A stretch of 64,000 nt of DNA from an endosymbiont of Galathealinum brachiosum (GTDB lineage: Bacteria > Pseudomonadota > Gammaproteobacteria > SZUA-229). The notes beneath the pieces are model-generated. The model had not been told where the DNA came from. It saw only the letters and a program-made list of their open reading frames with translations, and did no database searches. Position numbers and translations under genes: made by a program. Within the stretch, counting starts at the first letter, position 1. Every line of letters begins with the position of its first letter. The stretch spans positions 449,977-513,976 of the forward strand of contig QFXC01000011.1 of assembly GCA_003349885.1 (NCBI GenBank), read 5' to 3'. Positions 22,776 to 49,922 of this stretch are shown here, in pieces.

Positions 22776-22948
22776 TTGTTTAACTTAAGCTTATAGAAGA
22801 AGTTAACTAATAATCTCTCTACAGCGATTAATTGTTGATAATTGTCATATCGACAAATATATAAAATTTGTTATAAATGAAAAGATTACTATTAGAATTG
22901 ATACATAATGTAGTTTAATTGAGAATATTTCTGTGCTGGAGGAATCTT

Positions 22949-24640
22949 ATGATCATCATCGGTAGGCACACAATTTTCAGACAGATATTAACTATTATTT
23001 TTAGCCTGCTACTGATATTTCAGGCAATCAGCGCACAGGCATCAAACGAGCAGTCACAACCGGCACAGACTAAAGATGTCGATATGAACTTTCGTCTCGA
23101 TAAAGTCGTAGAAAAACCCACTGTACGTTTAGATTCTAATTCTACTGCTGATCATACAAAATTTGAAGAACTGAAAAATCCCCTTATGAGTGGTCCCGAA
23201 GTCACTAAAGCCTGTCTTAAGTGTCATACCGAAGCGGGTCAGCAGTTTATGAAAAATATCCATTGGACGTGGAGTTACGAAAACAAAAAAACGGGTCAGC
23301 TTCTGGGTAAAAAATATCTGGTTAATACATTCTGTACCAACTCCCGTGGTAATGAGGGAATGTGTGCTCAATGCCATGCGGGGTATGGCTGGAAGGATGA
23401 TAGTTTTGATTTTAAAAATGAGAGCAATATTGATTGTGTAGTCTGTCACGACAGAACGGGCACTTATTATAAAACACCACCGACCAAAGGTAATAAATCC
23501 TGTTCGGTTATGTTTGAAGGTAAACAGCCAATCCAGTGGTCTAAAGTGGCACAAAATGTCGGGCTGCCCGCACGTGAAAACTGTGGAGGCTGTCATTTCT
23601 ATGGAGGAGGTGGTGACGGTGTAAAACATGGTGATCTTGATTCATCACTGATCCACCCAGATAAAAAACTCGATGTGCACATGGATGAAGCCGGACTGAA
23701 TATGGCCTGCACAAATTGTCACGTTACAAAAAAACATGTGTGGGCAGGTAGTCGTTATGATGTTATTGCAAAAGATATTCAAGGCACCGGTAAACCCGGG
23801 CAACGTAGAGATGTAGCGACCTGTGAATCTTGTCACAGTACATCGCCACATCCGAATAATAGCCTTTCAAATATTAAACTGAATGATCATGTCGATCGAG
23901 TTGCCTGTCAGACATGCCATATACCAGCCATCGCCCGTGGGGGTGTTGCGACCAAAACAGACTGGGACTGGCGAACAGCCGGTAAAACAAAAGATGGTGA
24001 AGGTTATAAAGAAAAGAATTATACCCAGGGCAATGGTGAACATCGAGCGACCTATAAATCCATAAAGGGCAGTTTTGAATACGGTGAAAATCTGCAGCCA
24101 CATTATGGCTGGTTCGATGGTCAGATGATTTACACCACCATCGATACACAATTTGACCCGAGCAGTGGTCCGGTAGATGTAAATCGTTATACCGGTTCAG
24201 CAGCAGATGAAAATTCACGTATCTGGCCATTTAAACAGATGCATACGATTCAGCCGTATGACAAAGTTAACAATACACTGGTTTATATGCAGCTATGGGG
24301 AAATGATAAAGATGCCTACTGGGGTAACTATGATTTTGGTAAAGCAATCAGGGCAGGAATGGAAAAAAATAATCTGCCATACAGTGGAGAATATAGTTTT
24401 GTAGAAACTTATTCATACTGGCCAATTACTCATATGGTGGCACCTAAAGAAGATGCATTAAGTTGTGATGAATGCCATTCGAAAGAAGGTCGACTAAAAG
24501 GTCTTGAAGGTTTTTATTTACCGGGATCGGGCGATCATTCATGGTTAGATATTCTCGGATTATTGGCACTAGCCGGTACACTGTTCGGTGTTCTGGCTCA
24601 TGGTCTGATCCGGTTTGTTTTAAATAGAGCGAGGAAATAA
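22949..24640 (+). CDS. otr: Octaheme c-type cytochrome, tetrathionate reductase (Otr) family, with C-terminal TM anchor
   Basis: Eight CxxCH (CLKCH, CAQCH, CVVCH, CGGCH, CTNCH, CESCH, CQTCH, CDECH); HWTW and LGK..VNTFC; YWPITHMVAPKEDAL; GGAGGA RBS before ATG 22949. Confidence 0.9.
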   Translation: MIIIGRHTIFRQILTIIFSLLLIFQAISAQASNEQSQPAQTKDVDMNFRLDKVVEKPTVRLDSNSTADHTKFEELKNPLMSGPEVTKACLKCHTEAGQQFMKNIHWTWSYENKKTGQLLGKKYLVNTFCTNSRGNEGMCAQCHAGYGWKDDSFDFKNESNIDCVVCHDRTGTYYKTPPTKGNKSCSVMFEGKQPIQWSKVAQNVGLPARENCGGCHFYGGGGDGVKHGDLDSSLIHPDKKLDVHMDEAGLNMACTNCHVTKKHVWAGSRYDVIAKDIQGTGKPGQRRDVATCESCHSTSPHPNNSLSNIKLNDHVDRVACQTCHIPAIARGGVATKTDWDWRTAGKTKDGEGYKEKNYTQGNGEHRATYKSIKGSFEYGENLQPHYGWFDGQMIYTTIDTQFDPSSGPVDVNRYTGSAADENSRIWPFKQMHTIQPYDKVNNTLVYMQLWGNDKDAYWGNYDFGKAIRAGMEKNNLPYSGEYSFVETYSYWPITHMVAPKEDALSCDECHSKEGRLKGLEGFYLPGSGDHSWLDILGLLALAGTLFGVLAHGLIRFVLNRARK

Positions 24641-26137: not shown

Positions 26138-26360
26138 GAGATCTTCCTGATATCCGAGTTTACGTGTAGAAAAGAATACTCTTTAATATTAGATGTAATT
26201 TCTCGCTTATCCAGTTATATGATTCATAGCCTGAGTATTGATTGTCAGGTATCAAGTACCGCAAGGGTGATGTGAGAAGGGATATAAAAATATTTATCTC
26301 AGTGTACTCACGCTAAATTTGCTAAAATTGCTGAATTATTAAGCAATAAGTTAGAAATTG

Positions 26361-28232
26361 ATGTTCTATAACGAATCCTACGATGTAATTGTGATTGGCG
26401 GTGGCCATGCGGGCACAGAGGCCGCGCTGGCAGCTGCTCGTATGGGATCAAAAACACTGTTACTCACCCATAATATTGAAACACTAGGCATAATGAGCTG
26501 TAATCCGGCTATCGGGGGCATCGGTAAAGGGCATTTGGTTAAAGAAATTGATGCCATGGGTGGCATTATGGCGAAAGCGGCGGATAAGGGCGGCATCCAG
26601 TTTCGCACCTTAAATAGCAGCAAAGGCCCCGCAGTTCGTGCGACCCGTGCACAGGCTGATCGTCAGTTATATCGTCAGGCGATTCGCATTGCGCTTGAAA
26701 CTCAACCTAATCTGTCTATCTTTCAACAGGCGGTAGAAGACCTGATTATTGAAAATGACCAGGTTGTGGGTGTGGTTACACAAATGGGGCTTAATTTTAA
26801 ATGTAAATCTGCCATATTAACGGTAGGTACATTTCTGGATGGCTTGATTCATATTGGTCAAAGCAATCATTCTGGTGGACGTGCAGGTGATCCGCCTTCA
26901 ATTTCATTATCAAAACGCCTGCGTGATTTACCTTTTAGAGTGAGTCGTTTAAAAACCGGTACGCCACCGCGTATTGATACCCGGTCTATTGATTATAGTG
27001 ACTTACAGGAGCAGCCCGGTGATACACCAACGCCTGTATTTTCAATAACCGGTACAGTTGAGGATCATCCGCGACAGATTTCCTGTCATATCACCCATAC
27101 TAATGCCAATACACATGACATTATTCGAGGTGGTTTAGATCGCTCACCAATGTATTCTGGTGTGATAGAAGGGGTTGGTCCAAGATACTGTCCGTCAATT
27201 GAAGATAAAGTGGTGCGTTTTGCGGATAAAGATTCACACCAGATATTTATTGAGCCGGAAGGTTTAAACAGTTTTGAAGTTTATCCAAACGGCATTTCAA
27301 CCAGTTTACCTTTCGATGTACAAATGGATCTTGTGCGATCAATGAAAGGGTTTGAAAATGCGTTTATAACACGCCCCGGTTATGCCATTGAATATGATTT
27401 CTTTGACCCCCGTGATTTAAAGCCAAGTTTAGAAACACGATTTATAAATGGTTTATATTTTGCGGGTCAGATCAATGGAACAACCGGTTATGAAGAAGCC
27501 GCAGCACAGGGTATGACGGCGGCCATTAATGCCAGCTTAAAGATTCAGGAAAAAGATGCCTGGTCACCGAGAAGAGATCAGGCATACATTGGTGTACTAG
27601 TTGATGACTTAATCACGAATGGTACGCAGGAGCCTTATCGCATGTTTACATCACGCGCGGAATATAGATTATTATTACGTGAAGATAATGCAGATTTACG
27701 TTTGTCAGAAACCGCGCATGAAATGGGTTTATTAAGTGAATATCAGTGGCAATTATTTAATGAAAAACGTGAAGCGATTGAACAAGAGCAACAGCGTTTA
27801 AAAGACATGTGGATTCAACCCACATCAAATGCAGCAAAATCATTGGAAGCGGTTTTAGCCAAGCCTTTAAGTAAAGAATCACGTGCACTGGATTTACTCA
27901 AGCGCCCTGAAATGGATTATGAAAAACTCACACAGGTTGCAGAAATTGGCCCTGCCGTGAGTGATGCAAGAGTTGCTGAACAGGTTCAGATTCAGGTTAA
28001 ATATGAAGGTTATTTAAACCGTCAAAAAGAAGAGATTGAAAAAGCACGACGTTACGAAGATAAAAATATTCCTGAAAAAATTGAGTATGATCAGGTAAAA
28101 GGCCTGTCGAATGAAGTGCGTCAGAAACTGATTGATCATCGTCCAGCAACGCTGGGGCAGGCGGGTAGAATATCGGGTGTAACACCCGCGGCAATTTCAC
28201 TTTTATTAGTCCATCTTAAAAAGAAATCATAA
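26361..28232 (+). CDS. mnmG: tRNA uridine-5-carboxymethylaminomethyl modification enzyme MnmG (GidA)
   Basis: [50 protein letters not shown]. Confidence 0.99.
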
Positions 28233-38795: not shown

Positions 38796-39215
38796 ATGGC
38801 TATGACAACACATGTAGATATTGTTTCTGCGGAAAAAGAAATCTGGTCAGGCGAAGCCACTATGGTTTTTGCCCCGGGTATCATGGGTGAATTAGGTATT
38901 GCACCACGTCACACTCCATTACTGACTAAGCTGAAAGCTGGCGAAGTTCGAGTACGTGGACGTGACGGAGAAGATGAGTCTTATTTCATCTCAGGTGGCA
39001 TGCTGGAAATTCAACCACACGTGGTAACAATATTGTCTGATACCGCAGTTCGTGCAGATGATCTGGACGAAGCTGCTGCAATTGAAGCTAAGCAACGCGC
39101 TGAAGAAGCCATGCAGGATCAACATTCTGAAATGGACTTCGCAAAAGCCAGCTCTCAATTAGCTGAAGCCGCTGCAATGGTTGAGACAATCAAGAAGGTG
39201 CGAGGACGTAGATAA
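38796..39215 (+). CDS. atpC: ATP synthase F1 epsilon
   Basis: [23 protein letters not shown]. Confidence 0.99.
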
Positions 39216-39233
39216 AGCGTTTTTTTACTTTTT

Positions 39234-39262
39234 AAAAAAGCCGGACTTGTTCCGGCTTTTTT
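39234..39262 (+). terminator. Rho-independent terminator of the atp operon
   Basis: AAAAAAGCCGGA-CTTGT-TCCGGCTTTTTT. Confidence 0.9.
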
Positions 39263-39382
39263 ATTGTCTTATAAAAATGCAATTAGTTATAAATGTTGTA
39301 TTATTAGCTTAAATTTAATGCTTCTATTAACAATAAGTAGTTAATAACAATTGATGAAGCTCACATAATGAAAGGAACCCTA

Positions 39383-40741
39383 ATGCCATTAAGTGTAGTA
39401 ATCCTGGCCGCCGGAAAAGGCACACGCATGAAATCAAGCACGCCTAAAGTGCTGCATAAGCTTGCAAATAAACCCCTGGTAGAACATGTCTACGATACTG
39501 CTAAAGAGTTAGGAGCAGAAGAAGTGGTTGTTATATATGGTCATGGTGGCGATCAGGTAATGGAAACCTGCAAACATTTTGATGCTAAATGGGTAGAGCA
39601 GAAAGAGCAGCTAGGCACGGGTCATGCTGTAATGCAGGCATTTGATTCAGTAAATCTAAATAACAATGTTCTGGTTTTATATGGTGATGTGCCTTTAACT
39701 AAAAAAGAAACATTAGAAGACCTGCTTGATGGCTCAGAAGGTAAAGTCGGTTTGCTTTCAGTAAATCTGGATAACCCATTTGGTTATGGCCGTATTTTAC
39801 GCAATGCGGATAACCAGGTAACCGGTATCGTTGAGCAAAAAGATGCAAATGATGAGCAACAAAAGATACAGGAAGTTAATACTGGCATTCTCTCCTGTAA
39901 TGGAGAAACATTAAAAAGATTATTAAATAATATTGATAATAAAAATAGTCAGGGTGAATATTATTTAACAGATATTTTCGAACTGGCAGAAAAAGAAAAT
40001 ATTGCCATCAAAACAGCTCAGCCAAATTCAAGCTATGAAGTTGAAGGTGTTAATAATCGTTTACAATTGGGTACGTTAGAACGAATTTATCAGAGAAATA
40101 TTGCAGATGAACTTATGACTAATGGTGTTGCACTGGCAGATCCTGCTCGTATAGATATACGTGGTAATGCTGATATCAGTAACGATGTATATATAGACAT
40201 AAATGCAGTGATTGAAGGTAATGTAAAAATTGGTTCTGGAACAAATATAGGTCCAAATTGTGTAATAATTAATTCAATCATTGGTGAAAATGTAAATATA
40301 AAAGCCAATTGTGTTTTAGAGAATGCAATTGTTGAAAATAATTGCGAAGTAGGTCCATACGCTCGATTAAGACCAGAAGCGCATTTAAGTGAAAATGCTA
40401 AAGTGGGAAACTTTGTAGAAATTAAAAAAGCAAATATTGGTGTTGGAAGTAAAGTAAATCATCTCTCCTATATTGGTGATACAGAAATGGGTTCAAATGT
40501 TAATGTTGGCGCCGGAACCATAACCTGTAATTATGACGGTGCAAATAAACACAAAACAATTATTGGCGATAATGTATTTGTAGGCTCAGATACTCAGTTA
40601 GTTGCCCCTGTTAATATTGCTGATGGAGCAACGATTGGTGCAGGAGCGACAGTAACTAAAGATGTATCTGAAGGGGAATTAGTGATAAGTCGTTCACCAC
40701 AGAAAAGTATTCCAGGATGGGAACGCCCTACAAAAAAATAA
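39383..40741 (+). CDS. glmU: Bifunctional UDP-GlcNAc pyrophosphorylase / acetyltransferase GlmU
   Basis: [23 protein letters not shown], hexapeptide repeats, NYDG; ATG 39383 likely. Confidence 0.99.
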
Positions 40742-40839
40742 TTAATATAGAGCGCTATAGGAAAGAGGTGTGTAGGTAATTATTTTAGTAACCATACAGA
40801 ATAAGTGCTTACATAACTCAGCTTCAAGTTCGGAAAAAT

Positions 40840-42165
40840 ATGTCTAGTTTAATTACAAAAGCTCAAGAGTTCGCAACGACAGAACATCAACGAATTAATC
40901 ACGTACGTAAATATTCTAATTTACCCTATCAGACACACCTACAAGCTGTAGCGAAACTTGTGTCAACAGTTACTGATGATGAAGAAATGATTGCAGCGGC
41001 ATGGTTGCATGACACTGTTGAGGATACACCAGCAACATTAGGTGATATTGAAAAAGCCTTCGGAATTCATGTTGCTGAACTTGTTGAAGAGTTAACGGAT
41101 GTTAGTAAGCCGTCAGATGGAAATAGAGCAACGCGAAAAGAAATAGATCGTCAACATCTTGCAACAGCATCACGTAGAGCTAAAACGATTAAGTTGGCAG
41201 ATTTAATTCATAATTGTGCTGATATAGTAAAAAATGATGAGAAATTTGCAAGAACTTTTATTTCAGAAATGAAGGCTCTTTTAGAGGTATTGTCAACAGG
41301 TGATAAAACGTTGTTTAAACGGGCTCAGAATCTCATAAGTAAAAGTAGTGAAAAATTAGGTATAGATCCATCGATAGAAAGATTAGTAGAACCAGTTAAT
41401 AGCGTTTTACTAAATTTAATTGGATTTTCTGATTTACATTTTAAGGATAAATATCTTCAATTATTTACAGCAAGAGATGTAGCGGAAAGTTTACTGTCTT
41501 TTGATAGTGATGCATTAATAGATGAAGCGGATAAAGCTTTTAATTATCATAGACAAAGTGTTGCAAGTATTAGAATAAATGGCAGAGTTCAGGGTTATGT
41601 AAAGCAGAGTCGTTTAAAAGGCGAGGTATGTGGTGATAGCATGCGACACTTTACAGTTGATCAGGTGATACGAGGAACAGCTAGTTTAAGTGATGTAATA
41701 CATGTTTTAACAAGGCATGATTTTTGTTTTGTTAATATATTTGGCGAAGTAACTGGTGTTGTTACTCGAGAAGATATTAATAAGCCACAGGTAAGAATGT
41801 GGCTGTTTGGTCTGGTTACTATGATTGAAACTTCTATAACAGAACTTATTGATAGAGTGTACCCGGATGAAGCCTGGAAACAAATTATGTCAAAAGGTCG
41901 GCTGGAGAAAATGGAAGAAATCTGGTCAGAACGAAAACGAAGAAATTTGCATTGCCAGCTAATTGAATGTCTACAGTTTTCAGATAAAGCAGGAATTTTA
42001 ATTACAGATAAAGCTTCTCTTGAGCAAATGGGTTTTGAAACGGGTAAGCAAGCTAAGAAGGTTATAAAAGAGCTTGAATCTTTAAGAAACCATCTTGCTC
42101 ATTCTCAGGATATTGTTTCTCATGATTGGGCACAAATTGCCCGCCTAGTGAATCGCTTAAGTTGA
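40840..42165 (+). CDS. HD (RelA/SpoT hydrolase-like) - CBS pair - Swt1-like HEPN fusion protein
   Basis: PY..H...V, WLHDTVED and KLADLIHN (HD); TARDVAESL...TGVVTREDIN (CBS pair); LQFSDK...LRNHLAH (HEPN RxxxxH at 42085-42102). Confidence 0.8.
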   Translation: MSSLITKAQEFATTEHQRINHVRKYSNLPYQTHLQAVAKLVSTVTDDEEMIAAAWLHDTVEDTPATLGDIEKAFGIHVAELVEELTDVSKPSDGNRATRKEIDRQHLATASRRAKTIKLADLIHNCADIVKNDEKFARTFISEMKALLEVLSTGDKTLFKRAQNLISKSSEKLGIDPSIERLVEPVNSVLLNLIGFSDLHFKDKYLQLFTARDVAESLLSFDSDALIDEADKAFNYHRQSVASIRINGRVQGYVKQSRLKGEVCGDSMRHFTVDQVIRGTASLSDVIHVLTRHDFCFVNIFGEVTGVVTREDINKPQVRMWLFGLVTMIETSITELIDRVYPDEAWKQIMSKGRLEKMEEIWSERKRRNLHCQLIECLQFSDKAGILITDKASLEQMGFETGKQAKKVIKELESLRNHLAHSQDIVSHDWAQIARLVNRLS

Positions 42166-42170
42166 ATAAC

Positions 42171-43352
42171 ATGAAAAACCATTATGATGTTATTGTGATC
42201 GGTGCTGGAGCAGCAGGTTTGTTTTGTGCATTTAATAGTGCGATAAGAAATAAACGAGTGTTAGTGTTAGACCATGCTAATAAGGTGGGTAAGAAAATTT
42301 TAATGTCCGGTGGTGGACGTTGTAATTTTACAAATTTGAACACGATGTATGATGACTTTACATCAGAAAATATACATTTTGTAAAATCAGCTCTAAATCA
42401 ATATAGTGCTTATGATTATCTTAATTTAGTAGAGAGTCATAATATTGAGTATGTAGAAAAGTCACCTGGGCAGTTATTTTGTAAAAATAGCTCAAAAGAT
42501 ATTCTAAAAATGTTACTTGATGAATGCGCAAAAGCATCGGTAAAGATCTTTAAAAAATGCAGCATTAATAAGATCAATAAGAGTGATATTTATAGTATTG
42601 AAACAAATGTTGAAAATTATACTGCAAATTCATTAGTTGTTGCTACGGGAGGTCTGTCAATACCTACACTGGGAGCAACAGGATTTGGATATGAAATTGC
42701 CCAACAATTTGGCCATAAAATAGTTAAAACTAACGCATCTTTAGTGCCATTTACTTTAAGCAAAAAAATTCTGGATAAACAGAAAGAGTTGTCAGGTGTA
42801 TCATTACCGGTATTAGTAAGTAACAAAAATCATAATGTAGAAGATGATTTGTTATTTACTCATCGGGGTTTAAGTGGCCCGGCAATTCTTAAAATGTCTG
42901 TATACTGGAAATTTGGTGAAGAAATATTAATAGACTTGCTTCCATCTAAAAATATAAAAGAAGTGATAAAGTCAGAAAGGCTTAAGCATCCTGATAAATT
43001 ATTGATTAATAGTTTATCAGTAGTATTGCCAAAACGACTGGTTTTATATCTCTGCAATGAAAATTTAAAAGAATTAAAGTTAAAACAGCTGGATAAACCC
43101 GTAATTGATCAGTTAGTTAAAACCATACATGAATGGACGGTGACTCCATCTGGCACAGAAGGTTACAAAACAGCAGAAGTAACCTCAGGTGGTATAAGTA
43201 CTGAAGATATATCATCTAAAACATTAGAATCAAAGTTGCACAACAATTTATATTTTATTGGTGAAGTTCTGGATGTTACGGGACAGCTAGGAGGTTATAA
43301 CTTTCAGTGGGCGTGGTCTTCAGCATGGTGTGCGTCACAGGCTGTCAAATGA
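42171..43352 (+). CDS. HI0933/YhiN-family flavoprotein
   Basis: IGAGAAG, KILMSGGGRCNFTN, ATGGLS.P, LLFTHRGLSGP, GGYNFQWAWSS; ATG 42171. Confidence 0.95.
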   Translation: MKNHYDVIVIGAGAAGLFCAFNSAIRNKRVLVLDHANKVGKKILMSGGGRCNFTNLNTMYDDFTSENIHFVKSALNQYSAYDYLNLVESHNIEYVEKSPGQLFCKNSSKDILKMLLDECAKASVKIFKKCSINKINKSDIYSIETNVENYTANSLVVATGGLSIPTLGATGFGYEIAQQFGHKIVKTNASLVPFTLSKKILDKQKELSGVSLPVLVSNKNHNVEDDLLFTHRGLSGPAILKMSVYWKFGEEILIDLLPSKNIKEVIKSERLKHPDKLLINSLSVVLPKRLVLYLCNENLKELKLKQLDKPVIDQLVKTIHEWTVTPSGTEGYKTAEVTSGGISTEDISSKTLESKLHNNLYFIGEVLDVTGQLGGYNFQWAWSSAWCASQAVK

Positions 43353-43517
43353 GAGTTATTACTTTTATTTAAAGTGCAAATAATAGTGATGTTACATTAC
43401 TGAATATGTGAGCATTTACTCATTAATGAATTTGTTGATTTAAAGCTGTATTAATTTAAGCATAAATCTGGCAAGGTATAATGCGATTCATCAAACAGGA
43501 TGTGGGAATATTTAATA

Positions 43518-44327
43518 ATGAAATTAATATGGGTTATTTTACTTACCGTTATTTCAGCTTCAGTCTTAGCAGAAGATAGTTTTCCAGGACGTAAACTGTA
43601 TCCCAGTGTCCCATTTATTGAGCTAGACGATCTCTATAAACAGATAAATGATGTTGTAATAATAGATGCCAGATCAAAATATGAATATGAAACCCTGAAG
43701 ATCAAATCGGCCGTATCTATCCCGCTTGCATTATCAACCAAACGATTCCAGAAAAGAATGATGACAATAAGACAGGAAAATCCAGAGAAGAAACTGGTGT
43801 TTTACTGTAATGGTCATAAATGTATGAAATCATATAAAGCTGCAAAACGCAGTATCTCATATCTTGGTTTAAATAATATTTTTGCATATGATGCAGGTGT
43901 TTTTGAATGGGCCAAGAAATATCCTGCTGAATCTCTACTATTAGGGGAGGTACTAGTAAGTCCGGATAAGCTTATATCAAAAAGCGCATTTACAGAGCAC
44001 CTTCTTCCAGGAGAAGCATTCATCAAAAATGCCAATTCTGAAGTCACTATACTGGATATCAGAGATAGAATAGAGAGAGATGGATTTTATATATTTTCTG
44101 GTGAGGAAAATTCGATTAGTCTGGATAAGCGAGAAAAATCAAAACTTGATAAGCTTATTGCATCTGTAAAAAAGAGTAATAAAACACTTTTTGTATATGA
44201 TATGGTCGGTAAACAGGTTAGATGGTTTCAATACTATCTTGAGTCTAAAGGTATAAAAAAATACTATTTTATGAAAGGTGGAGCAGATGCCTTTTTTGAT
44301 ATCCCGCTCAACAAACTAATAGATTAA
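43518..44327 (+). CDS. Exported tandem rhodanese-domain protein
   Basis: Signal VLA|ED; domain 1 IIDAR...FYCNGHKC; domain 2 LDIRD...FVYDMVG. Confidence 0.8.
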   Translation: MKLIWVILLTVISASVLAEDSFPGRKLYPSVPFIELDDLYKQINDVVIIDARSKYEYETLKIKSAVSIPLALSTKRFQKRMMTIRQENPEKKLVFYCNGHKCMKSYKAAKRSISYLGLNNIFAYDAGVFEWAKKYPAESLLLGEVLVSPDKLISKSAFTEHLLPGEAFIKNANSEVTILDIRDRIERDGFYIFSGEENSISLDKREKSKLDKLIASVKKSNKTLFVYDMVGKQVRWFQYYLESKGIKKYYFMKGGADAFFDIPLNKLID

Positions 44328-44343
44328 TATTTCGACTTAATGC

Positions 44344-45066
44344 CTAATCAAGCCAGCCACCTGTGGCTTGTATGGGTTGTAAGTTACCAGGTGCATTAAT
44401 CCAGATAGCTAATGCGTAACGCTGGCTAACAAAATTACTTGTAGTTTCCAGTTCTATATCCCATGTACCATTCTTAGAAAGTTTCGATATTTTATTTAAA
44501 ACGATGAAATTTTCAGAAAATAATTCACCACTATTTTCTCCGTGTTTCACATCTGTTTTAATTGAAAAACCTAATAAAGCAACATTAAGATTCAAAGGGA
44601 TTTTGTGTTTGTAATGTACATGTAAGTTATTGTCATTTAAGTCAGCAGACAGAATGCCTGGTTTAACCAGAGACTCTGGTAAGGTCTTACCACGATACCA
44701 GCCACGCCACTCATTACCGTTAGCTATCATACCCGGTGTATAAACCGAGCTGACCCCGCCCTGATAATGATAGGTTCTTTGTCTCTGAGAATACTGCTTT
44801 TTAGAGAAAGGATCCTTCCATCCCAGATAGTCCCAGTAATCAACATGAAAAACAAGGGGTATGAAATCAATCCATAAACCCGGGTTATCAATTTGTCTGG
44901 AAATCCAGCGTTCTGCTGGAGGGCAACTGCTACAACCCTGGGATGAATACAGTTCGAGTAGCTGGGTATTAGCACTCGTACTCTGGAATGTTTGTGCCTG
45001 ACCGGTTAGTACATACCCGACAGTAAGGCTTAATATCAGGTTTAGCGTAATAATGGCATTTTTCAT
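44344..45066 (-). CDS. DUF1223 thioredoxin-like exported protein
   Basis: LELYSSQGCSSCPPA, FHVDYWDYLGWKDPF, VYTPG. Confidence 0.92.
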   Translation of the reverse strand: MKNAIITLNLILSLTVGYVLTGQAQTFQSTSANTQLLELYSSQGCSSCPPAERWISRQIDNPGLWIDFIPLVFHVDYWDYLGWKDPFSKKQYSQRQRTYHYQGGVSSVYTPGMIANGNEWRGWYRGKTLPESLVKPGILSADLNDNNLHVHYKHKIPLNLNVALLGFSIKTDVKHGENSGELFSENFIVLNKISKLSKNGTWDIELETTSNFVSQRYALAIWINAPGNLQPIQATGGWLD

Positions 45067-45179
45067 AATCTCTCTCCGTATTACATAGAGTGAGTAAAGT
45101 AAGGGCAGTTCAACGATGTTAATATTTTGTGATAAATATTAAATATTTAAGCAGGAAAAATGGTGCTAGTTTTGAAAAA

Positions 45180-45566
45180 TTATGACTTCTCGCCATTTAG
45201 GCAGGCTTCAATTGCATCTTCAGGTGTATCATGTAAGAACGCACCCTGTAGAGGATACAGATCATTAAGTTTACTAACAAATTGACTTTCCTCTTTCAGT
45301 ACAAAAACAATCGTTTTTGTATCGGGACTGTATTTGGGTAATGATGATAGTAGAACATCGAGATTACTAACATTAACGCCAGCATAATTATTGCCATAAC
45401 CATAAAAAAATTCCGCCACGATAAAATCAGGTTTATATGTTTTTAAGGCTTTAATGGCATTTCGGCTTGAATTAACCTTAATTTCACGCGCACCCATCTG
45501 TTTATACAAATTACTTAATTTTGGATGGGTTGGGGACTCAATAATTGAGAGTATTGTCAGGTTCAT
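45180..45566 (-). CDS. Hypothetical protein, atypical receiver-like fold
   Basis: KPDFIVAEFFYGYGNNYAGVNVSNLD; ATG 45566 preferred over 45629. Confidence 0.6.
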   Translation of the reverse strand: MNLTILSIIESPTHPKLSNLYKQMGAREIKVNSSRNAIKALKTYKPDFIVAEFFYGYGNNYAGVNVSNLDVLLSSLPKYSPDTKTIVFVLKEESQFVSKLNDLYPLQGAFLHDTPEDAIEACLNGEKS

Positions 45567-45651
45567 AATATTTCTATGGTGTGAAAAACATAATAATACT
45601 ATCAGGCTCTGATAAAATACACGCCACATAACAGGAATTTACAGAAGTACT

Positions 45652-47547
45652 ATGGCATTACTCACTCTACGCAATATCAATCTGGGCTTTGGCGGGCCGA
45701 ATTTATTTGACTCTCTGAATCTGCAGATAGACCCCAAAGAACGTTTATGTCTATTAGGGCGTAACGGAGAGGGTAAATCGACTCTGATGAAGCTTATCGG
45801 AGGCATGGTAAAAGCGGATGAGGGGAGTATTGAGCAACAGCAGAATCTAAAAATTGCCTATCTAACACAGGATATTCCAGATGATATTGAAGGCAGTGTT
45901 TATGATGTGGTTTCATCCGGACTGGAAGGTGTAGGTGAAATTTTAAAGAATTATCATCATTGTAGCCTCGAATTAGCGGAAGATTACACTGATCAAAAGA
46001 TGGAAGAGTTATCTCGGATTCAGCATGAATTAGAAGCAGTAGACGGCTGGAGTCTGTCGCAACAGGTTGAAACGACCATCTCACAACTGGAGTTACCGGC
46101 AGATGATGAGTTTAGTTCGTTATCCGGAGGTTTAAAGCGTCGGGTGTTGTTGGGAAGAGCGCTGGTTACTACACCAGATTTGTTATTACTGGATGAGCCG
46201 ACTAATCATCTGGATGTTGAAGCCATACAATGGATAGAAGAGTTTCTGCTTAACTGGAATGGTAGTGTGTTATTTGTGACCCACGATAGGTCATTCCTGA
46301 GAAGGCTGGCAACAAGAATTATAGAGCTAGATCGTGGCAAGTTAACCTCCTGGCCGGGCAATTATGAAACGTACCTTGTGCGTAAACAGGAGTCACTTGA
46401 AAACGAAGAAAAGGAGAATGCACTTTTTGATAAACGCCTAGCTCAGGAAGAAGTATGGATTCGTCAGGGCATAAAAGCCCGTCGTACTCGCAACGAAGGT
46501 CGGGTGCGTGCACTTAAAGCGATGCGTAATGAGCGATCGGCAAGACGAGAGCAGAAAGGTCAGGTCAATATGCAGGTTTCAGCTCAGGATAGTTCGGGCA
46601 AACGAGTCATTGAAGCTGAGAACCTTACTTATAGTTATGGAGATATGCCTATCGTTAAGGGCTTAACAACATTAATTACCAGAGGTGATCGAATAGGTAT
46701 TATCGGGCCAAATGGTGTTGGTAAATCAACCCTGATTAAACTAATGTTAGGCGAGTTACAGCCTGACGAAGGTAAAGTTGAACTAGGAACAAAACTTGAG
46801 ATTGCTTATTTTGATCAGCTTCGTTCAGAGTTAGATTTACAAAAAAGTGTGCGAGATAATTTAGCGCCAGGCACCGATAAAATTACAGTTGCAGGCCGGG
46901 AAAAACATGTCATGAGTTACCTCAGTGATTTTCTGTTTGCCCCAACACGTGCAAATTCACCAGTAAGCACTTTATCCGGTGGTGAACGTAACCGATTAAT
47001 GCTGGCCAAATTATTTGCAAAACCATTTAATCTTCTGGTAATGGATGAGCCAACTAATGACCTGGACGTAGAAACTCTAGAATTACTTGAAGACCTGTTA
47101 ATGTCATATGAAGGTACTTTGATCTTAATCAGTCATGACCGTGCTTTTTTAGATAATGTAGTAACAAGTACATTGGTCTTTGAAGGAAATGCGCAGGTTA
47201 ATGAATATGTAGGTGGGTATGAGGACTGGCTAAGGCAGTTTAAAAATAAATTTAGCAGGAAAAAAGACAAAAAAGAGAAACAGGTAAAGACAGAAGTAAA
47301 ACCAGTAGAGCAGAACAAACCAGTTAAGAAACGTACATTTAAAGAACAAAAAGAATTAGAAGAGCTGCCGGTATTAATTGAAACACTGGATGCAGAAATG
47401 GCTGAGATAACAGAAAAAATGGCTGAACCTAAATTTTATCAGCAGAATAAAGAAATTATTGCGATAACTACAACGCGTGTTTCAGAAATAGAGTATGCAT
47501 TAAAACAGGCCTATGAGCGCTGGGAGCAGTTAGAGGATACAGAATGA
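45652..47547 (+). CDS. uup: ABC-F ATPase Uup
   Basis: Two ABC domains (GRNGEGKST/LSGG/DEPTNHLD; GPNGVGKST/LSGGE), EEVWIRQGIKARRTRNEGRVRAL linker, C-terminal coiled coil. Confidence 0.95.
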   Translation: MALLTLRNINLGFGGPNLFDSLNLQIDPKERLCLLGRNGEGKSTLMKLIGGMVKADEGSIEQQQNLKIAYLTQDIPDDIEGSVYDVVSSGLEGVGEILKNYHHCSLELAEDYTDQKMEELSRIQHELEAVDGWSLSQQVETTISQLELPADDEFSSLSGGLKRRVLLGRALVTTPDLLLLDEPTNHLDVEAIQWIEEFLLNWNGSVLFVTHDRSFLRRLATRIIELDRGKLTSWPGNYETYLVRKQESLENEEKENALFDKRLAQEEVWIRQGIKARRTRNEGRVRALKAMRNERSARREQKGQVNMQVSAQDSSGKRVIEAENLTYSYGDMPIVKGLTTLITRGDRIGIIGPNGVGKSTLIKLMLGELQPDEGKVELGTKLEIAYFDQLRSELDLQKSVRDNLAPGTDKITVAGREKHVMSYLSDFLFAPTRANSPVSTLSGGERNRLMLAKLFAKPFNLLVMDEPTNDLDVETLELLEDLLMSYEGTLILISHDRAFLDNVVTSTLVFEGNAQVNEYVGGYEDWLRQFKNKFSRKKDKKEKQVKTEVKPVEQNKPVKKRTFKEQKELEELPVLIETLDAEMAEITEKMAEPKFYQQNKEIIAITTTRVSEIEYALKQAYERWEQLEDTE

Positions 47548-49922
47548 CGAAGTATTTGATTCACGGTTTAGTTGTTGTTTTTTCATTGCTTATCGTCTCA
47601 TGTGGAAGTGATAAAGAAAGTATAACGAAGCAGCAGTCTGATATTGAATATGATATTTTATTAAAAGGAGGAGAGAAAAATATCTCCTTTATAAATCAGG
47701 CAAGACCCGTTTTAGAAAAGCGTTGTATTGTGTGTCATGGATGTTATGACGCACCATGCCAGTTAAAGTTGACTTCAATAGAAGGGATTAAACGCGGTGC
47801 GAATCCTGAAAAAGTATATAATTCGGAAAGAATTATTGCGGCACAACCTACACGGTTATTTATAGATGCAAAGTCTGAAGAAGAATGGCGAGAAAAAGGT
47901 TTCAACTCTGTTTTAAATGAACAGGAAAATAACGAGATTAATAATTTACGTCACTCTGTGCTGTACAAAATGCTGCGTCTGAAACAGCTTAATCCCCAGC
48001 CAAGAGTGGGCATGATAGATGAAAAAATTGATCTAGGCCTAAACAGGGAACAGACGTGCCCGGTTAATGAAGAGTTTAATGATTATGCTGAAGAATTTCC
48101 CTTTCAGGGTATGCCATTTGCCACTCCCAACTTATCAGATGACGAATATCATATATTAGTTAAGTGGATCTCTCAGGGTATGCCAGATGATAGTCAGATA
48201 ACTTTTACTGAATCAACCCAAAATCAGATTAAGACATGGGAAGATTTTTTAAATAAAAAAGGATTGAAATACCAGCTGATAAGTCGTTATTTGTATGAGC
48301 ATTTGTTTATGGCTCATCTTAATTTTAAAGGTGAAAGTAGTCGTGAATTTTTTCGTATTGTTCGTTCATCTACACCTGCAGGACAAACGATAAATGAAAT
48401 AGCAACTATTCGCCCATATGACTACCCCGGTCCGGATTCCTTTTATTATCGTTTACGATATGAGGAATCGTCTATAGTAGATAAATCACATGTTGTTTAT
48501 CAGTTGTCAGATAAAAAGCTAGAAAGATTCAAAGAGTTATTTATTAATCCAGATTATAAAGTTGATAAATTACCATCATATGAGGCAGCGGTTGCATCTA
48601 ATCCTATAAGAACATTTGCAGATATACCTGTTGAATCTCGATATCGTTTTTTACTTGATGATGCAAAGTTTTTCATTGATGGTTTTATAAAAGGCCCTGT
48701 ATGTAGAGGGCAGGTCGCATTAAATGTTATCGAAGATAATTTCTGGGTTTTTTTTAGCGACCCGAAAAAATTACGTGTTAATCATAATACTGAATATTTG
48801 AAGGAAATCGCAGGTGATTTTAATCTGCCGGCAGAGCAGGGTAATACATATAATCCATTTAGTATCTGGACAAATTACTGGGAATTACAACGCGACAATA
48901 TGCTTAAGCGTCAGGAAGAATATATTAAACTACCTAAAATGAATCTTGATAAAGCGCTCGAGTTTATATGGGATGGTAGTGATAGTTTAAACAAAAATAA
49001 TAACGCATTAACAGTATTCAGACATTTTGATAGCGCAACAGTGAAGCAGGGGTTGCTAGGTGATTACCCTGAGACGGCCTGGGTAATTGATTACCCGATT
49101 TTTGAGAGAATACATTATTTACTGGTTGCAGGATATGATGTTAGCGGAAATGTAGGCCACCAGTTTAATACCAGAATATATATGGATTTTTTACGCATGG
49201 AAGCAGAAAACACCTTTCTGGCTTTTTTGCCGGTTAAACATAGAAGAGAAATTCGAGCGTCGTGGTATAAGGGAATACGTGAAGGCTTGCAGCCGTATTT
49301 CAAAGAGCCTGATGACTGGTTAAATGTGCAGATAGTAAACGGGTTTAAGACGAATGACCCGCAAATGGAGTTTTATAGAAAAATTGAACAAAGATTAAGT
49401 GCCTCAGACAAAAACATTGATCTTATTAATCGCTGTAAGGGGGTTAAATGTAATGTTAAAAATAAATTGTCGGAAATGGAAAGGCATATTCAACGCATAG
49501 CAAAAATTAAAGGTGAAAGATTAAGTATATTTCCAGACACAGCTTTCTTAAAGGTAATATCAGAAAAAGAAACGCAGGTGTATACCATTATAAATAATAA
49601 AGGTTATAAAAATATTAGTTCTCTTTTAAGTGATACGGAGAACAGAGATAAGCACTCAGATACACTGACTATATATAAAGGGTTGCTCGGATCTTATCCA
49701 AACTTCTTTTTTGTTGTTAATGAAAATAAATTAAGTGATTTTGCGAATGAAATTATTGCTATTAGCTCAAGAGATGATTATGAACGTTTTGTTGGTCGTT
49801 ATGGAGTGCGTAGAACATCTTCAGATTTCTGGAAAGAGGCGGACTGGTTTAATGAGCAGTTTGCAAAACAGGATCCGGTAGATTACGGAATATTTGATTT
49901 GTATCGATATAACAATCGTTGA
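47544..49922 (+). CDS. cti: Fatty acid cis/trans isomerase
   Basis: RCIVCHGCYDAPCQLKL heme motif, YLYEHLF, FIKGPVCRGQVAL, FRHFDSA; lipobox LIVS|C. Confidence 0.93.
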   Translation: MTKYLIHGLVVVFSLLIVSCGSDKESITKQQSDIEYDILLKGGEKNISFINQARPVLEKRCIVCHGCYDAPCQLKLTSIEGIKRGANPEKVYNSERIIAAQPTRLFIDAKSEEEWREKGFNSVLNEQENNEINNLRHSVLYKMLRLKQLNPQPRVGMIDEKIDLGLNREQTCPVNEEFNDYAEEFPFQGMPFATPNLSDDEYHILVKWISQGMPDDSQITFTESTQNQIKTWEDFLNKKGLKYQLISRYLYEHLFMAHLNFKGESSREFFRIVRSSTPAGQTINEIATIRPYDYPGPDSFYYRLRYEESSIVDKSHVVYQLSDKKLERFKELFINPDYKVDKLPSYEAAVASNPIRTFADIPVESRYRFLLDDAKFFIDGFIKGPVCRGQVALNVIEDNFWVFFSDPKKLRVNHNTEYLKEIAGDFNLPAEQGNTYNPFSIWTNYWELQRDNMLKRQEEYIKLPKMNLDKALEFIWDGSDSLNKNNNALTVFRHFDSATVKQGLLGDYPETAWVIDYPIFERIHYLLVAGYDVSGNVGHQFNTRIYMDFLRMEAENTFLAFLPVKHRREIRASWYKGIREGLQPYFKEPDDWLNVQIVNGFKTNDPQMEFYRKIEQRLSASDKNIDLINRCKGVKCNVKNKLSEMERHIQRIAKIKGERLSIFPDTAFLKVISEKETQVYTIINNKGYKNISSLLSDTENRDKHSDTLTIYKGLLGSYPNFFFVVNENKLSDFANEIIAISSRDDYERFVGRYGVRRTSSDFWKEADWFNEQFAKQDPVDYGIFDLYRYNNR

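What the first reader, a model, noticed from the sequence alone, without database searches (positions are those of the whole stretch)
40840..42165. HD alarmone-hydrolase-like + CBS nucleotide sensor + HEPN RNase in one protein: candidate self-limiting, nucleotide-gated RNase system
Seen: aa 1-170 carry RelA/SpoT-type hydrolase motifs (H57-D58 in WLHDTVED, KLADLIHN) with no synthetase domain. Aa ~207-315 form a CBS pair. The C-terminus has LQFSDK...LRNHLAH, an intact RxxxxH. Known: small alarmone hydrolases and MESH1-like HD domains cleave (p)ppGpp/(p)ppApp-type nucleotides; CBS pairs bind adenosine nucleotides allosterically; HEPN RxxxxH domains are dimeric RNases used as toxins and defence effectors. 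Inference: a nucleotide signal bound by CBS switches on the RNase while the fused HD domain destroys the signal, similar in logic to effector-ring nuclease fusions. Alternatively the HD domain senses a phage-made alarmone. I know of no characterised protein with this three-domain order. The gene is AT-rich and sits where glmS usually follows glmU.
Basis: partly seen in the sequence, partly recalled or inferred. Interest (0 to 1): 0.85.

Follow-up and report, generated by a model that had tools for sequence, protein, structure and literature searches.

The report
Alarmone-hydrolase fused to CBS-gated HEPN RNase
The gene encodes a real three-domain protein (a small alarmone hydrolase, a CBS nucleotide-sensor pair and a HEPN ribonuclease) that is a stably inherited chromosomal gene of sulfur-oxidising Gammaproteobacteria; the architecture was already catalogued in 2013, but no protein with it has been studied experimentally.

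Summary
ORF 40840-42165 (+) encodes 441 aa with three domains. The first is a Mesh1/RelH-type alarmone-hydrolase HD domain with every catalytic residue intact. The second is a CBS pair. The third is an all-helical C-terminal domain with HEPN topology and an invariant R416-x4-H421.

- **Not unprecedented.** Anantharaman et al. 2013 list "CBS and HD" fusions of Swt1-like HEPN domains and proposed nucleotide-sensed control of RNA stability. A remote CBS-HEPN relative, E. coli DS-11, was validated in 2026 as a one-protein anti-phage system.
- **CBS-HEPN is the core.** The roughly 260-aa CBS-HEPN module usually stands alone. The HD domain is an add-on, found at the N-terminus or, rarely, the C-terminus.
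- **No defence context.** This clade sits in the oriC-proximal core (atp-glmU-X), keeps clade-specific synteny, has ordinary composition and evolves at a housekeeping rate. No defence or mobile genes lie nearby.

My best reading is a dimeric, nucleotide-gated RNase. Its tethered hydrolase would remove a 3'-pyrophosphorylated purine signal, (p)ppGpp or (p)ppApp. That would couple alarmone level to RNA cleavage. The ligand, the RNase activity and the fold match to solved HEPN structures remain unproven.

The parts
40840..42165 (+). Whole gene: 441-aa HD(SAH)-CBS-HEPN protein, stop codon included
   Evidence: ORF list. More than 1500 full-length homologs at 57-82% identity.
40840..41364 (+). Small-alarmone-hydrolase-type HD domain (aa 1-175; Pfam HD_4 matches aa 8-135)
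   Evidence: Pfam 59.3 bits. PDB phmmer hits RelH 7qoc at 4e-16 and Mesh1. Foldseek matches 7qod, 3nqw and 6yvc with TMt 0.80-0.85.
41008..41025 (+). HD catalytic core H57-D58...E61-D62 (WLHDTVED); the other metal or catalytic residues are H33 (40936-40938), D121 (41200-41202) and N125 (41212-41214)
   Evidence: Invariant in 28 homologs. Aligned to the Mesh1/RelH HD and ED motifs. Kept in about 22 of 25 diverse fused representatives.
41365..41433 (+). Flexible, poorly conserved linker (aa 176-198)
   Evidence: pLDDT below 50 at aa 180-191. These columns are variable in A1.
41434..41784 (+). CBS pair / Bateman module (aa 199-315), with the ribose-phosphate-type motif G306-V-V-T-R-E-D312 in CBS2 (41755-41775)
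   Evidence: Secondary structure shows 2 x beta-alpha-beta-beta-alpha. Foldseek matches CBS pairs 2p9m, 4gqv and 3sl7. Profile hits to CBS proteins in the PDB. Pfam CBS hits.
41779..41811 (+). CBS2-to-HEPN junction motif NKPQVRMWLFG (aa 314-324), the most conserved stretch of the wider family; presumed allosteric relay
   Evidence: The tool chose it as the family's search pattern. R319, L322, F323 and G324 are at least 90% conserved in both fused and stand-alone forms.
41785..42162 (+). HEPN domain (aa 316-441): H1 316-340, H2 352-367, helical insert 374-396, H3 402-420, H4 425-440
   Evidence: AF2 models. The topology matches the HEPN description in PMC3710099. Pfam HEPN_Swt1 hits. Foldseek gave no solved-structure match.
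42085..42102 (+). HEPN catalytic motif R416-N-H-L-A-H421; the third invariant residue, R354, is at 41899-41901
   Evidence: R354, R416 and H421 are the only invariant columns among 84 CBS-HEPN modules of 29-54% identity. The motif aligns with DS-11 R330/H335.
40742..40839 (+). glmU-to-gene spacer containing a hairpin (about 40750-40831); no sigma-70 consensus or terminator called
   Evidence: Fold energy -23 kcal/mol, z -2.65. No Rfam family. Sequence not conserved in relatives. Promoter and terminator scan.
39368..40741 (+). glmU, the upstream co-oriented neighbour (context, not part of the protein's mechanism)
   Evidence: ORF and translation. Synteny in L001-L003 and L175. A strong terminator before it at 39233-39263.
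42171..43352 (+). HI0933-like FAD flavoprotein gene starting 5 nt after the stop; probably co-transcribed in this clade only
   Evidence: Pfam HI0933_like 6e-89. Sequence at the junction. The same neighbour occurs in L001, L003 and L175 but not in other clades.

Best explanation
Shown: the gene encodes a cytosolic, single-polypeptide enzyme of the widespread CBS-HEPN family (HEPN of the Swt1-like group). In this lineage a Mesh1/RelH-type small alarmone hydrolase (SAH) domain has been fused to it through a flexible linker. It is a vertically inherited, single-copy chromosomal gene of sulfur-oxidising Gammaproteobacteria.

Inferred mechanism:
- The protein dimerises through its Bateman and HEPN modules.
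- Binding of a purine nucleotide in the CBS pair is relayed through the rigid, highly conserved CBS2-to-helix-1 junction (NKPxVRMWLFG).
- This sets the geometry of the HEPN dimer so that the two R-x4-H motifs form an active, metal-independent RNase site.
- The tethered HD domain hydrolyses the 3'-pyrophosphate of the same class of nucleotide, most likely (p)ppGpp or the adenine alarmone (p)ppApp.
- RNA cleavage therefore follows alarmone level and is switched off, or buffered, by the protein itself.

In this clade the role is more likely stress or starvation-linked RNA turnover than a mobile anti-phage module.
For: Domain identities and intact active sites.

HEPN R416/H421 are invariant in 84 diverse modules and in all 25 diverse fused representatives.

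CBS-HEPN is the conserved core: 114 of 150 representative clusters are stand-alone and 30 are HD-fused. HD is found on either end: P0158/L082 and L150 are single ORFs with the order CBS-HEPN-HD, and P0158 lies outside the HD-N cluster in a module tree. This is a Rosetta-stone-type argument for a functional link.

The HD domain is 42-50% identical to ordinary stand-alone SAHs, so it probably keeps their substrate class.

Precedents:
- (p)ppGpp binds the Bateman module of most bacterial IMPDHs (PMC9462843).
- The remote relative DS-11 needs both a CBS residue and the HEPN R/H for function (PMC13092281), and it is collinear with this family (hhalign probability 88.8%, E 2.5e-6).
- The 2013 catalogue proposed nucleotide-sensed RNA stability control for CBS(+HD)-HEPN proteins.

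Housekeeping-like behaviour:
- Located about 40 kb from dnaA.
- Clade-specific conserved synteny and no conserved partner.
- Identity to orthologs is 78-82%, between GlmU (86-90%) and the HI0933 neighbour (69-76%).
- Ordinary GC and codon use.
- 482 species-level genomes encode a relative; among the 80 best loci kept, only one genome contributed two.
Against: - No ligand evidence exists. CBS residues are poorly conserved across the family; only L218 and G248 are near-universal.
- Proteobacterial IMPDH Bateman modules have lost the (p)ppGpp pocket, so alarmone binding by a CBS pair cannot be assumed.
- Most family members lack the HD domain and have no SAH gene within +/-8 kb. A few fused members have a degenerate HD site while keeping R-x4-H. 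The hydrolase is therefore dispensable for the core mechanism.
- Only two positions distinguish fused from stand-alone modules.
- A permanently tethered hydrolase would blunt its own signal unless it is regulated.
- The isolated C-terminal model found no HEPN structure in the PDB or BFVD, and the Pfam HEPN hit for this protein is below the curated cut-off.
- The inter-domain arrangement is uncertain (pTM 0.50).
- Dimerisation was not modelled.
Confidence: 0.4

Rival explanations
1. Two parallel outputs under one sensor. The CBS pair reads adenylate status or another adenosyl ligand (ATP/AMP, Ap4A, SAM, c-di-AMP), not an alarmone. It co-regulates both enzymes, so that alarmone clearance by the HD domain and RNA cleavage by HEPN happen together, for example on exit from or entry into starvation.
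For: CBS pairs classically bind adenosyl ligands. DS-11 was modelled with ATP, and its authors propose an adenine derivative. Stand-alone CBS-HEPN proteins work without an HD domain or a neighbouring SAH. Fused and stand-alone modules barely differ. A CBS protein (DarB) regulating an RSH enzyme has a structural precedent, 8acu, seen.
Against: It does not explain why specifically an SAH-type HD domain was fused, and in both orders. There is no evidence of HD-CBS contact (pTM 0.50 and a disordered linker).
Confidence: 0.22
2. An anti-phage abortive-infection protein of the DS-11 type. A nucleotide that accumulates during infection, possibly made by a phage or by a toxSAS-type enzyme, gates the RNase. 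The HD domain then prevents autoimmunity or senses the nucleotide.
For: DS-11 (CBS+HEPN) protects E. coli, and its CBS and HEPN mutants lose protection. It is remotely homologous to this family. There are weak PADLOC hits to PDC-M34B and CARF_HEPN profiles. Distant haloarchaeal relatives sit beside restriction endonucleases, an integrase and a TIGR02391 gene.
Against: In this clade the gene lies in the oriC-proximal core with conserved synteny and housekeeping-rate evolution. No defence or mobile genes occur in any inspected neighbourhood. The CBS-HEPN module is absent from the phage genomes, found on 8 haloarchaeal plasmids only, and in only 2 of 2.9 million viral contigs. The PADLOC hits are far from significant for membership.
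Confidence: 0.15
3. An RNA-end enzyme pair. HEPN cuts RNA, leaving a 2',3'-cyclic phosphate. The HD domain then acts on RNA 3' ends (3'-phosphate, cyclic phosphate or a pyrophosphorylated CCA end) rather than on free nucleotides, so the protein is an RNA processing or repair enzyme gated by CBS.
For: Some SAH enzymes remove the 3'-pyrophosphate from tRNA CCA ends (Kurata et al.). Mesh1 also accepts 2'- or 3'-phosphorylated nucleotides such as NADPH and PAPS (PDB 5vxa and 9chy). The physical tethering of the two catalytic domains also fits.
Against: The HD domain is dispensable in most of the family. It is closest to ordinary free-standing SAHs. There is no RNA-ligase or kinase partner nearby.
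Confidence: 0.12
4. A regulated alarmone hydrolase only. The C-terminal helical domain is an RNA-binding or dimerisation module without nuclease activity, analogous to the regulatory C-terminal domains of SpoT.
For: Foldseek does not confirm a HEPN fold. The Pfam HEPN hit is below threshold. Eukaryotic Swt1 HEPN domains are thought to be inactive.
Against: R416 and H421 are invariant in every relative examined, including those with a dead HD site or no HD domain. The equivalent residues are essential in DS-11.
Confidence: 0.05

Closest known systems
HD + CBS + Swt1-like HEPN architecture catalogued by Anantharaman, Makarova, Burroughs, Koonin & Aravind 2013 (examples alr3009 of Nostoc and gi 118580987 of Pelobacter propionicus)
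   Same: The same three domain types, and the same HEPN group (Pfam HEPN_Swt1). It is listed as catalytically 'active'. The same proposal was made: CBS senses a nucleotide and regulates RNA stability.
   Different: It is only a computational listing. The HD domain was called a generic 'HD phosphohydrolase', not a RelA/SpoT-type alarmone hydrolase. I could not fetch alr3009 to test direct orthology. No experiment exists.
DS-11 (E. coli WP_000257686.1, 365 aa), a one-protein CBS+HEPN anti-phage system (DefensePredictor, Science 2026, PMC13092281)
   Same: A collinear CBS pair followed by HEPN with an RNxxxH motif. Profile alignment spans both domains (probability 88.8%, E 2.5e-6). A CBS residue and the HEPN R/H are both required for function.
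   Different: The homology is remote: 19% identity, and BLASTP is not significant. DS-11 has an unrelated ~120-aa N-terminus and no HD domain. It is an accessory E. coli gene, whereas this one is a core-region, syntenic gene. The ligand of DS-11 is also unknown.
Small alarmone hydrolases and Mesh1 (C. glutamicum RelH 7qod, P. aeruginosa SAH 6yvc, human and Drosophila Mesh1 3nr1/3nqw)
   Same: The fold (TMt 0.80-0.85), the HD_4 family, and the full H...HD...ED...D...N active site.
   Different: Those are stand-alone proteins of about 180-200 aa. Here the domain is the N-terminal third of a 441-aa protein.
Csm6/Csx1 CARF-HEPN effectors of type III CRISPR (self-limiting, ligand-degrading)
   Same: The logic is similar: a nucleotide-sensor domain gates a dimeric HEPN RNase, and the ligand is destroyed by the same polypeptide. 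A few family members give weak PADLOC hits to CARF_HEPN profiles.
   Different: The sensor is a CBS pair, not CARF. Ligand destruction would be by a separate HD domain. There is no CRISPR-cas context.
Bateman-module regulation by alarmones and of RSH enzymes (IMPDH-(p)ppGpp; DarB-Rel, PDB 8acu)
   Same: CBS pairs can bind (p)ppGpp, and a CBS-pair protein can control a Rel-type enzyme (8acu appears).
   Different: In those cases the CBS module regulates a dehydrogenase or acts in trans. Proteobacterial IMPDHs lost the alarmone pocket.

Membership tests
RelA/SpoT-homologue hydrolase domain (Pfam HD_4) / small alarmone hydrolase | Profile match above the curated threshold | tested here: met
   HD_4 scores 59.3 bits against a cut-off of 27.2, E 5e-16. 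All 28 homologs match.
RelA/SpoT-homologue hydrolase domain (Pfam HD_4) / small alarmone hydrolase | Metal-binding H...HD...D and catalytic ED motif | tested here: met
   H33, H57-D58, E61-D62, D121 and N125 are invariant in A1 and aligned to Mesh1/RelH.
RelA/SpoT-homologue hydrolase domain (Pfam HD_4) / small alarmone hydrolase | Fold similarity to solved SAH/Mesh1 structures | tested here: met
   Foldseek matches 7qod, 3nqw, 9chy and 6yvc with E 3e-7 to 1e-5 and TMt 0.78-0.85.
RelA/SpoT-homologue hydrolase domain (Pfam HD_4) / small alarmone hydrolase | Stand-alone single-domain format (what makes an SAH 'small') | tested here: not met
   The domain is fused to CBS-HEPN in a 441-aa protein.
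RelA/SpoT-homologue hydrolase domain (Pfam HD_4) / small alarmone hydrolase | Hydrolysis of (p)ppGpp/(p)ppApp | not testable with these tools
   Needs an enzyme assay.
Long RSH (RelA/SpoT) | Synthetase, TGS and ACT domains | tested here: not met
   TIGR00691 scores 68.6 bits against a cut-off of 499 and only positions 3-121 of 687 are matched. No other RSH domains were found.
CBS pair (Bateman module) | Two tandem beta-alpha-beta-beta-alpha CBS units | tested here: met
   The AF2 secondary structure shows them at aa 199-314. Foldseek matches CBS pairs with TMt 0.62-0.71.
CBS pair (Bateman module) | Profile match above the curated threshold | tested here: inconclusive
   This protein scores 21.2-23.2 bits against a cut-off of 24. 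23 of 84 relatives match, the best at E 1.2e-10. The family profile hits CBS proteins in the PDB.
CBS pair (Bateman module) | Binding of an adenosyl or purine nucleotide ligand | not testable with these tools
   Only the motif G306-VVT-R-E-D312 in CBS2 is seen.
HEPN superfamily, Swt1-like group (PF18731) | Conserved R-x4-6-H motif | tested here: met
   R416-NHLA-H421 is invariant in A1, A3 and 25 fused representatives.
HEPN superfamily, Swt1-like group (PF18731) | Four-helix bundle with an insert between H2 and H3 and the motif at the end of H3 | tested here: met
   Model helices are 316-340, 352-367, insert 374-396, 402-420 and 425-440. They match the definition in PMC3710099.
HEPN superfamily, Swt1-like group (PF18731) | Profile match above the curated threshold | tested here: inconclusive
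   This protein scores 22.4 bits against 27.5. The relative P0125 (49% identical module) scores 29.5 bits, above the cut-off. 26/28 and 35/84 relatives match at E <= 0.01.
HEPN superfamily, Swt1-like group (PF18731) | Structural similarity to a solved HEPN domain | tested here: inconclusive
   The isolated C-terminal model (pLDDT 83.5) has no Foldseek hit with E below 1 in the PDB or BFVD. There is no PDB sequence hit either.
HEPN superfamily, Swt1-like group (PF18731) | Metal-independent RNase activity | not testable with these tools
   Needs a biochemical assay.
DS-11-type CBS-HEPN single-protein anti-phage defence | Collinear CBS pair followed by HEPN, homologous to DS-11 | tested here: inconclusive
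   hhalign gives probability 88.8%, E 2.5e-6 over 190 columns including RNxxxH. BLASTP gives E 1.2.
DS-11-type CBS-HEPN single-protein anti-phage defence | Accessory, patchy or defence-island genomic context | tested here: not met
   The gene is in an oriC-proximal syntenic core position with housekeeping neighbours.
DS-11-type CBS-HEPN single-protein anti-phage defence | Protection against phage | not testable with these tools
   Needs phage challenge experiments.
CARF-HEPN (Csm6/Csx1) | CARF sensor domain and CRISPR-cas association | tested here: not met
   The sensor is a CBS pair. Only weak PADLOC hits to the HEPN part occur in a few relatives. No cas genes are in the window.
HEPN toxin-antitoxin pairs (e.g. 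HEPN-MNT) | Conserved adjacent antitoxin or partner gene | tested here: not met
   No conserved neighbour was found in about 73 genome loci or about 50 metagenome loci.

The most novel reading that the evidence does not exclude
The SAH fusion is a 'Rosetta stone' for the whole CBS-HEPN family. On this reading, the unknown activating ligand of these RNases, including that of the validated defence protein DS-11, is a 3'-pyrophosphorylated purine alarmone such as (p)ppApp or (p)ppGpp. In sulfur-oxidising Gammaproteobacteria the fused form would be a domesticated, self-resetting, alarmone-gated RNase that links the stringent response directly to RNA decay.
Probability: 0.25. Interest if true: 0.8.

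Novelty: new variant of a known kind. Interest (0 to 1): 0.5.

Why it matters
CBS-HEPN proteins are a large family: 1635 clusters at 50% identity matched at E <= 0.001. Only one remote member, DS-11, has any experimental data, and its activating ligand is unknown.

The recurrent fusion to a bona fide alarmone hydrolase narrows the candidate ligands to a small, purchasable set: (p)ppGpp, (p)ppApp, and 3'-phosphorylated adenine nucleotides. The question therefore becomes directly testable in vitro.

If confirmed, this would be a direct enzymatic link between alarmone signalling and RNA cleavage. It would also be a non-CRISPR example of a HEPN effector that carries its own signal-degrading domain. 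The core-genome behaviour of this clade would further show a defence-type RNase module recruited to host physiology.

Tried and rejected
1. Foldseek of the isolated C-terminal model against the PDB and BFVD gave no hit with E below 1. I treat this as a limit of the method on a small all-helical domain, not as evidence against HEPN.
2. HMM profiles of the C-terminus (A2) and of the CBS-HEPN module (A3) against PDB sequences gave only CBS hits and spurious coiled-coil or PPR hits. No HEPN structure was found.
3. I searched for a conserved operon partner or antitoxin by clustering all neighbours in 80 genome loci and about 58 metagenome loci. None was found.
4. I searched for a separate SAH gene next to stand-alone CBS-HEPN genes. 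None was found within +/-8 kb.
5. PADLOC gave only weak hits: PDC-M34B at E 5e-4 for this protein, and CARF_HEPN hits for a few relatives. I rejected these as evidence of membership.
6. tblastn against the phage collection found nothing. On plasmids, the full-length protein matched only through its HD domain, and the CBS-HEPN module matched 8 haloarchaeal records. Viral contigs gave only 2 weak loci.
7. An Rfam scan of 39000-45800 for a riboswitch upstream of the gene found nothing relevant. The spacer hairpin is not conserved.
8. I tested foreign origin by composition and rejected it.
9. Three look-ups of stand-alone representatives landed on contigs of 2 kb or less and gave no context.
10. 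Comparing CBS residues between fused and stand-alone forms gave only two clade-specific positions, Q275 and R435. No pocket signature emerged.
11. Literature searches for 'small alarmone hydrolase'+HEPN, 'CBS-HEPN', and HEPN+'CBS domain'+ppGpp returned no papers.
Full report

Yes. The ORF at 40840-42165 (+) starts with ATG and encodes 441 aa.

Pfam finds HD_4 at aa 8-135 (E 5e-16, 59.3 bits against a cut-off of 27.2). It also gives two sub-threshold hits: CBS at aa 276-313 (21.2 bits against 24) and HEPN_Swt1 at aa 329-440 (22.4 bits against 27.5). NCBIfam's RelA/SpoT model matches only its first ~120 positions, at 68.6 bits against a cut-off of 499, so there is a hydrolase but no synthetase.

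The best PDB sequence matches are small alarmone hydrolases and Mesh1: RelH 7qoc at 4e-16, then Mesh1 3nqw and 3nr1. In a 28-sequence alignment of full-length homologs (57-82% identity), the SAH/Mesh1 catalytic set H33, H57-D58, E61-D62, D121 and N125 is invariant. So is the C-terminal ESLRNxLxHxQD with R416 and H421.

**2. Structure**

An AlphaFold2 model built on that alignment has mean pLDDT 84.5 and pTM 0.50. It contains:
- a helical N-terminal domain;
- a disordered linker (aa 180-191, pLDDT below 50);
- two beta-alpha-beta-beta-alpha units (aa 199-314);
- an all-helical C-terminus.

Foldseek against the PDB matches the N-terminus to RelH, P. aeruginosa SAH and Mesh1 (TMt 0.78-0.85, E about 1e-6). 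It matches the middle to CBS pairs (TMt about 0.65-0.71).

A separate model of aa 312-441 (pLDDT 83.5, pTM 0.73) found no significant structural neighbour in the PDB or BFVD. Sequence profiles of this region hit no solved HEPN structure. Direct structural confirmation of HEPN therefore failed.

The helix layout, however, is exactly the one that defines HEPN in Anantharaman et al. 2013. H1 is 316-340 and H2 is 352-367. A helical insert follows at 374-396. H3 is 402-420, with R416 in its last turn and H421 at the start of the loop, and H4 is 425-440. [quoted passage not shown]

Pfam HEPN_Swt1 also hits 26 of 28 close homologs and 35 of 84 distant ones. One relative whose module is 49% identical to ours (P0125) scores 29.5 bits, above the gathering threshold. 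I accept the HEPN assignment on motif, topology and profile evidence. The fold-search result is negative.

**3. The family**

More than 1500 close full-length homologs exist. A scan of one genome per GTDB species found 482 genomes with a relative. Among the 80 best loci kept, all but one carried gammaproteobacterial or unresolved labels. They include Thiogranum, Thiohalobacter, Sedimenticola, Chromatiales, tubeworm and clam symbionts, Thiohalocapsa and Halochromatium.

I searched aa 181-441 alone against 1.84 billion cluster representatives. This gave 1635 clusters at E <= 0.001. Of the best 150:
- 114 are stand-alone CBS-HEPN proteins (median 265 aa);
- 30 are HD-CBS-HEPN;
- one is CBS-HEPN-HD.

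The permuted order is a genuine single ORF in two independent contigs: P0158/L082 and L150. In a neighbour-joining tree of the module, P0158 falls outside the HD-N cluster.

Across 84 diverse modules (29-54% identity) only R354, R416 and H421 are invariant. Among 25 diverse fused representatives the HD active site is intact in about 22. It is degenerate in P0130, P0135 and P0196, while R-x4-H is kept in all.

The conserved engine is therefore CBS-HEPN. The alarmone hydrolase is a recurrent but dispensable add-on. The HD domain itself is 42-50% identical to ordinary stand-alone SAHs, many of them on plasmids.

**4. Genomic context**

The window is the oriC-proximal core. It carries dnaA, yidC, mnmE, mnmG, parAB, the atp operon and glmU.

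A strong terminator follows atpC (39233-39263). There is then no terminator through glmU, the 98-nt spacer, the target gene and an HI0933-like flavoprotein gene that starts 5 nt after the stop.

The order atp-glmU-X-HI0933-rhodanese is kept in relatives at 73-82% identity (L001, L003, L175). Other clades have different but internally conserved neighbours:
- a KefB-like antiporter and phosphatidylserine decarboxylase in the Thiogranum group;
- a hybrid histidine kinase in the symbiont/Sedimenticola group;
- patatin, OprD and AsmA elsewhere.

There is no conserved partner. I saw no integrase, transposase or known defence gene. No SAH gene lies next to stand-alone forms.

Identity to syntenic orthologs is 78-82%. 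That lies between GlmU (86-90%) and the HI0933 neighbour (69-76%). GC (0.356) and codon usage are ordinary for the window.

The CBS-HEPN module is absent from 50,697 phage genomes. It is present in only 2 of 2.9 million viral contigs. On plasmids it occurs only in 8 haloarchaeal megaplasmids at 25-28% identity. In the two I inspected it sits next to restriction endonucleases (one) or an integrase and a TIGR02391 gene (the other). Distant relatives can therefore be in defence-like regions, but this clade is not.

**5. What is already known**

Anantharaman et al. 2013 list, under Swt1-like HEPN, the fusion 'CBS and HD (alr3009), active'. The paper does not identify the HD as an alarmone hydrolase.

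DefensePredictor (Science 2026) validated DS-11, an E. coli one-protein CBS+HEPN system. Y157A in the CBS domain and R330A/H335A in HEPN abolish defence. The authors conclude that an undiscovered adenine derivative gates the nuclease.

DS-11 aligns to our family profile over both domains, with R330/H335 on R416/H421 (hhalign probability 88.8%, E 2.5e-6). Pairwise BLAST is not significant. The relationship is remote homology plus an identical layout, not membership of the same subfamily.

I found no paper that mentions both small alarmone hydrolases and HEPN.

**6. How it most likely works**

Shown:
- three domains with intact signature residues;
- a flexible HD-CBS linker;
- a rigid, extremely conserved CBS2-to-HEPN-helix-1 junction (NKPxVRMWLFG).

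Inferred from established knowledge of Bateman modules and of HEPN RNases (Csm6, RNase L, Ire1): the protein dimerises, and nucleotide binding in the CBS pair repositions the HEPN protomers to form the composite R-x4-H site.

The fusion partner points to the ligand class. HD_4 enzymes remove 3'-pyrophosphate (or 2'/3'-phosphate) from purine nucleotides. (p)ppGpp is a proven Bateman-module ligand in IMPDH of most phyla. The most economical model is therefore an alarmone-gated RNase whose own HD domain hydrolyses the signal. I give this 0.40.

The weak points are these:
- there is no ligand evidence;
- CBS pocket conservation is poor;
- the HD domain is dispensable;
- proteobacterial IMPDH has lost the alarmone pocket.

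Rivals:
- CBS reads adenylates or Ap4A and co-regulates two outputs (0.22).
- It is a DS-11-like abortive-infection protein (0.15). This is the same mechanism with a different biological role, and the context evidence argues against it.
- The HD domain acts on RNA 3' ends, as some SAHs do on pyrophosphorylated tRNA (0.12).
- The HEPN is non-catalytic (0.05). This is contradicted by the invariance of R/H.

**7. Verdict**

The gene is a new, uncharacterised variant of a known kind, the CBS-gated HEPN RNases, and belongs to an architecture already catalogued computationally. Its value is as a testable clue to the ligand of the whole CBS-HEPN family. Interest 0.5.

Noticed in passing
window 583-39215: The window is the oriC-proximal chromosomal core. 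It carries dnaA (583-1950, -), yidC (3098-4732), mnmE (4842-6194), mnmG (26358-28232), parA/parB and the complete atp operon ending at 39215.
   Followed up: partly
window 39368-45066: glmU is not followed by glmS. Instead come the target gene, an HI0933-like FAD flavoprotein (ATG 42171, 5 nt after the stop), a double-rhodanese protein with a signal-like N-terminus (43500-44327) and DUF1223 (44344-45066, -). The same order is found in relatives L001, L003 and L175.
   Followed up: partly
window 40750-40831: The glmU-target spacer contains a hairpin (-23 kcal/mol, z -2.65). There is no Rfam match, and the sequence is not conserved. Unrelated palindromes sit at the same place in L003, L085 and L086.
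   Followed up: partly
L082 1565-2860 (P0158); L150 1350-2666: These are single ORFs with the permuted order CBS-HEPN-HD. Their HD domain is very similar to the N-terminal one of this family (E 1e-54 to 5e-69).
   Followed up: partly
P0139 (860 aa, representative cluster): This protein has HD_4 + CBS-HEPN followed by PAS and HATPase_c domains. It may be a fusion to a sensor kinase or a gene-calling artefact.
   Followed up: no
L169 5977-6801; L170 5989-6777 (haloarchaeal megaplasmids): These are distant stand-alone CBS-HEPN proteins (25-28% identity, LRNxVAH motif kept). The one in L170 lies beside two restriction endonuclease genes. The one in L169 lies near a phage integrase and a TIGR02391 family gene.
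   Followed up: partly
plasmid hits H1-H25 (e.g. NC_013930.1 6147-6671): 389 plasmids matched the full-length protein, none over more than half its length. The listed hits are HD-only genes annotated 'HD domain-containing protein', 34-50% identical to the HD domain (42-50% for most of the top 23). Hosts include Klebsiella, Salmonella, Enterobacter and Pseudomonas. Their role on plasmids is unclear to me.
   Followed up: no
PMC13092281 Table S10: E. coli WP_001532511.1 is a 263-aa 'CBS domain-containing protein' predicted as a novel defence gene. It has the length of the stand-alone CBS-HEPN family.
   Followed up: no
P0271 (257 aa) and P0275 (179 aa), each on a 2186-bp contig: Cluster members at 90% identity or more to the fused P0124 appear as separate HD-only and CBS-HEPN-only proteins. 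Both come from JGI contigs of 2186 bp, possibly the same contig. This may be a real split gene or a frameshift in the assembly.
   Followed up: no
window 22919-24640 and 47544-49922: A multihaem cytochrome c (Cytochrome_cB, MtrC-like repeats) and a fatty-acid cis/trans isomerase (CTI, E 1e-260) lie in the same window.
   Followed up: no
window 14153-15259 (-) and 45180-45629 (-): Two ORFs of 368 aa and 149 aa have no significant Pfam family.
   Followed up: no
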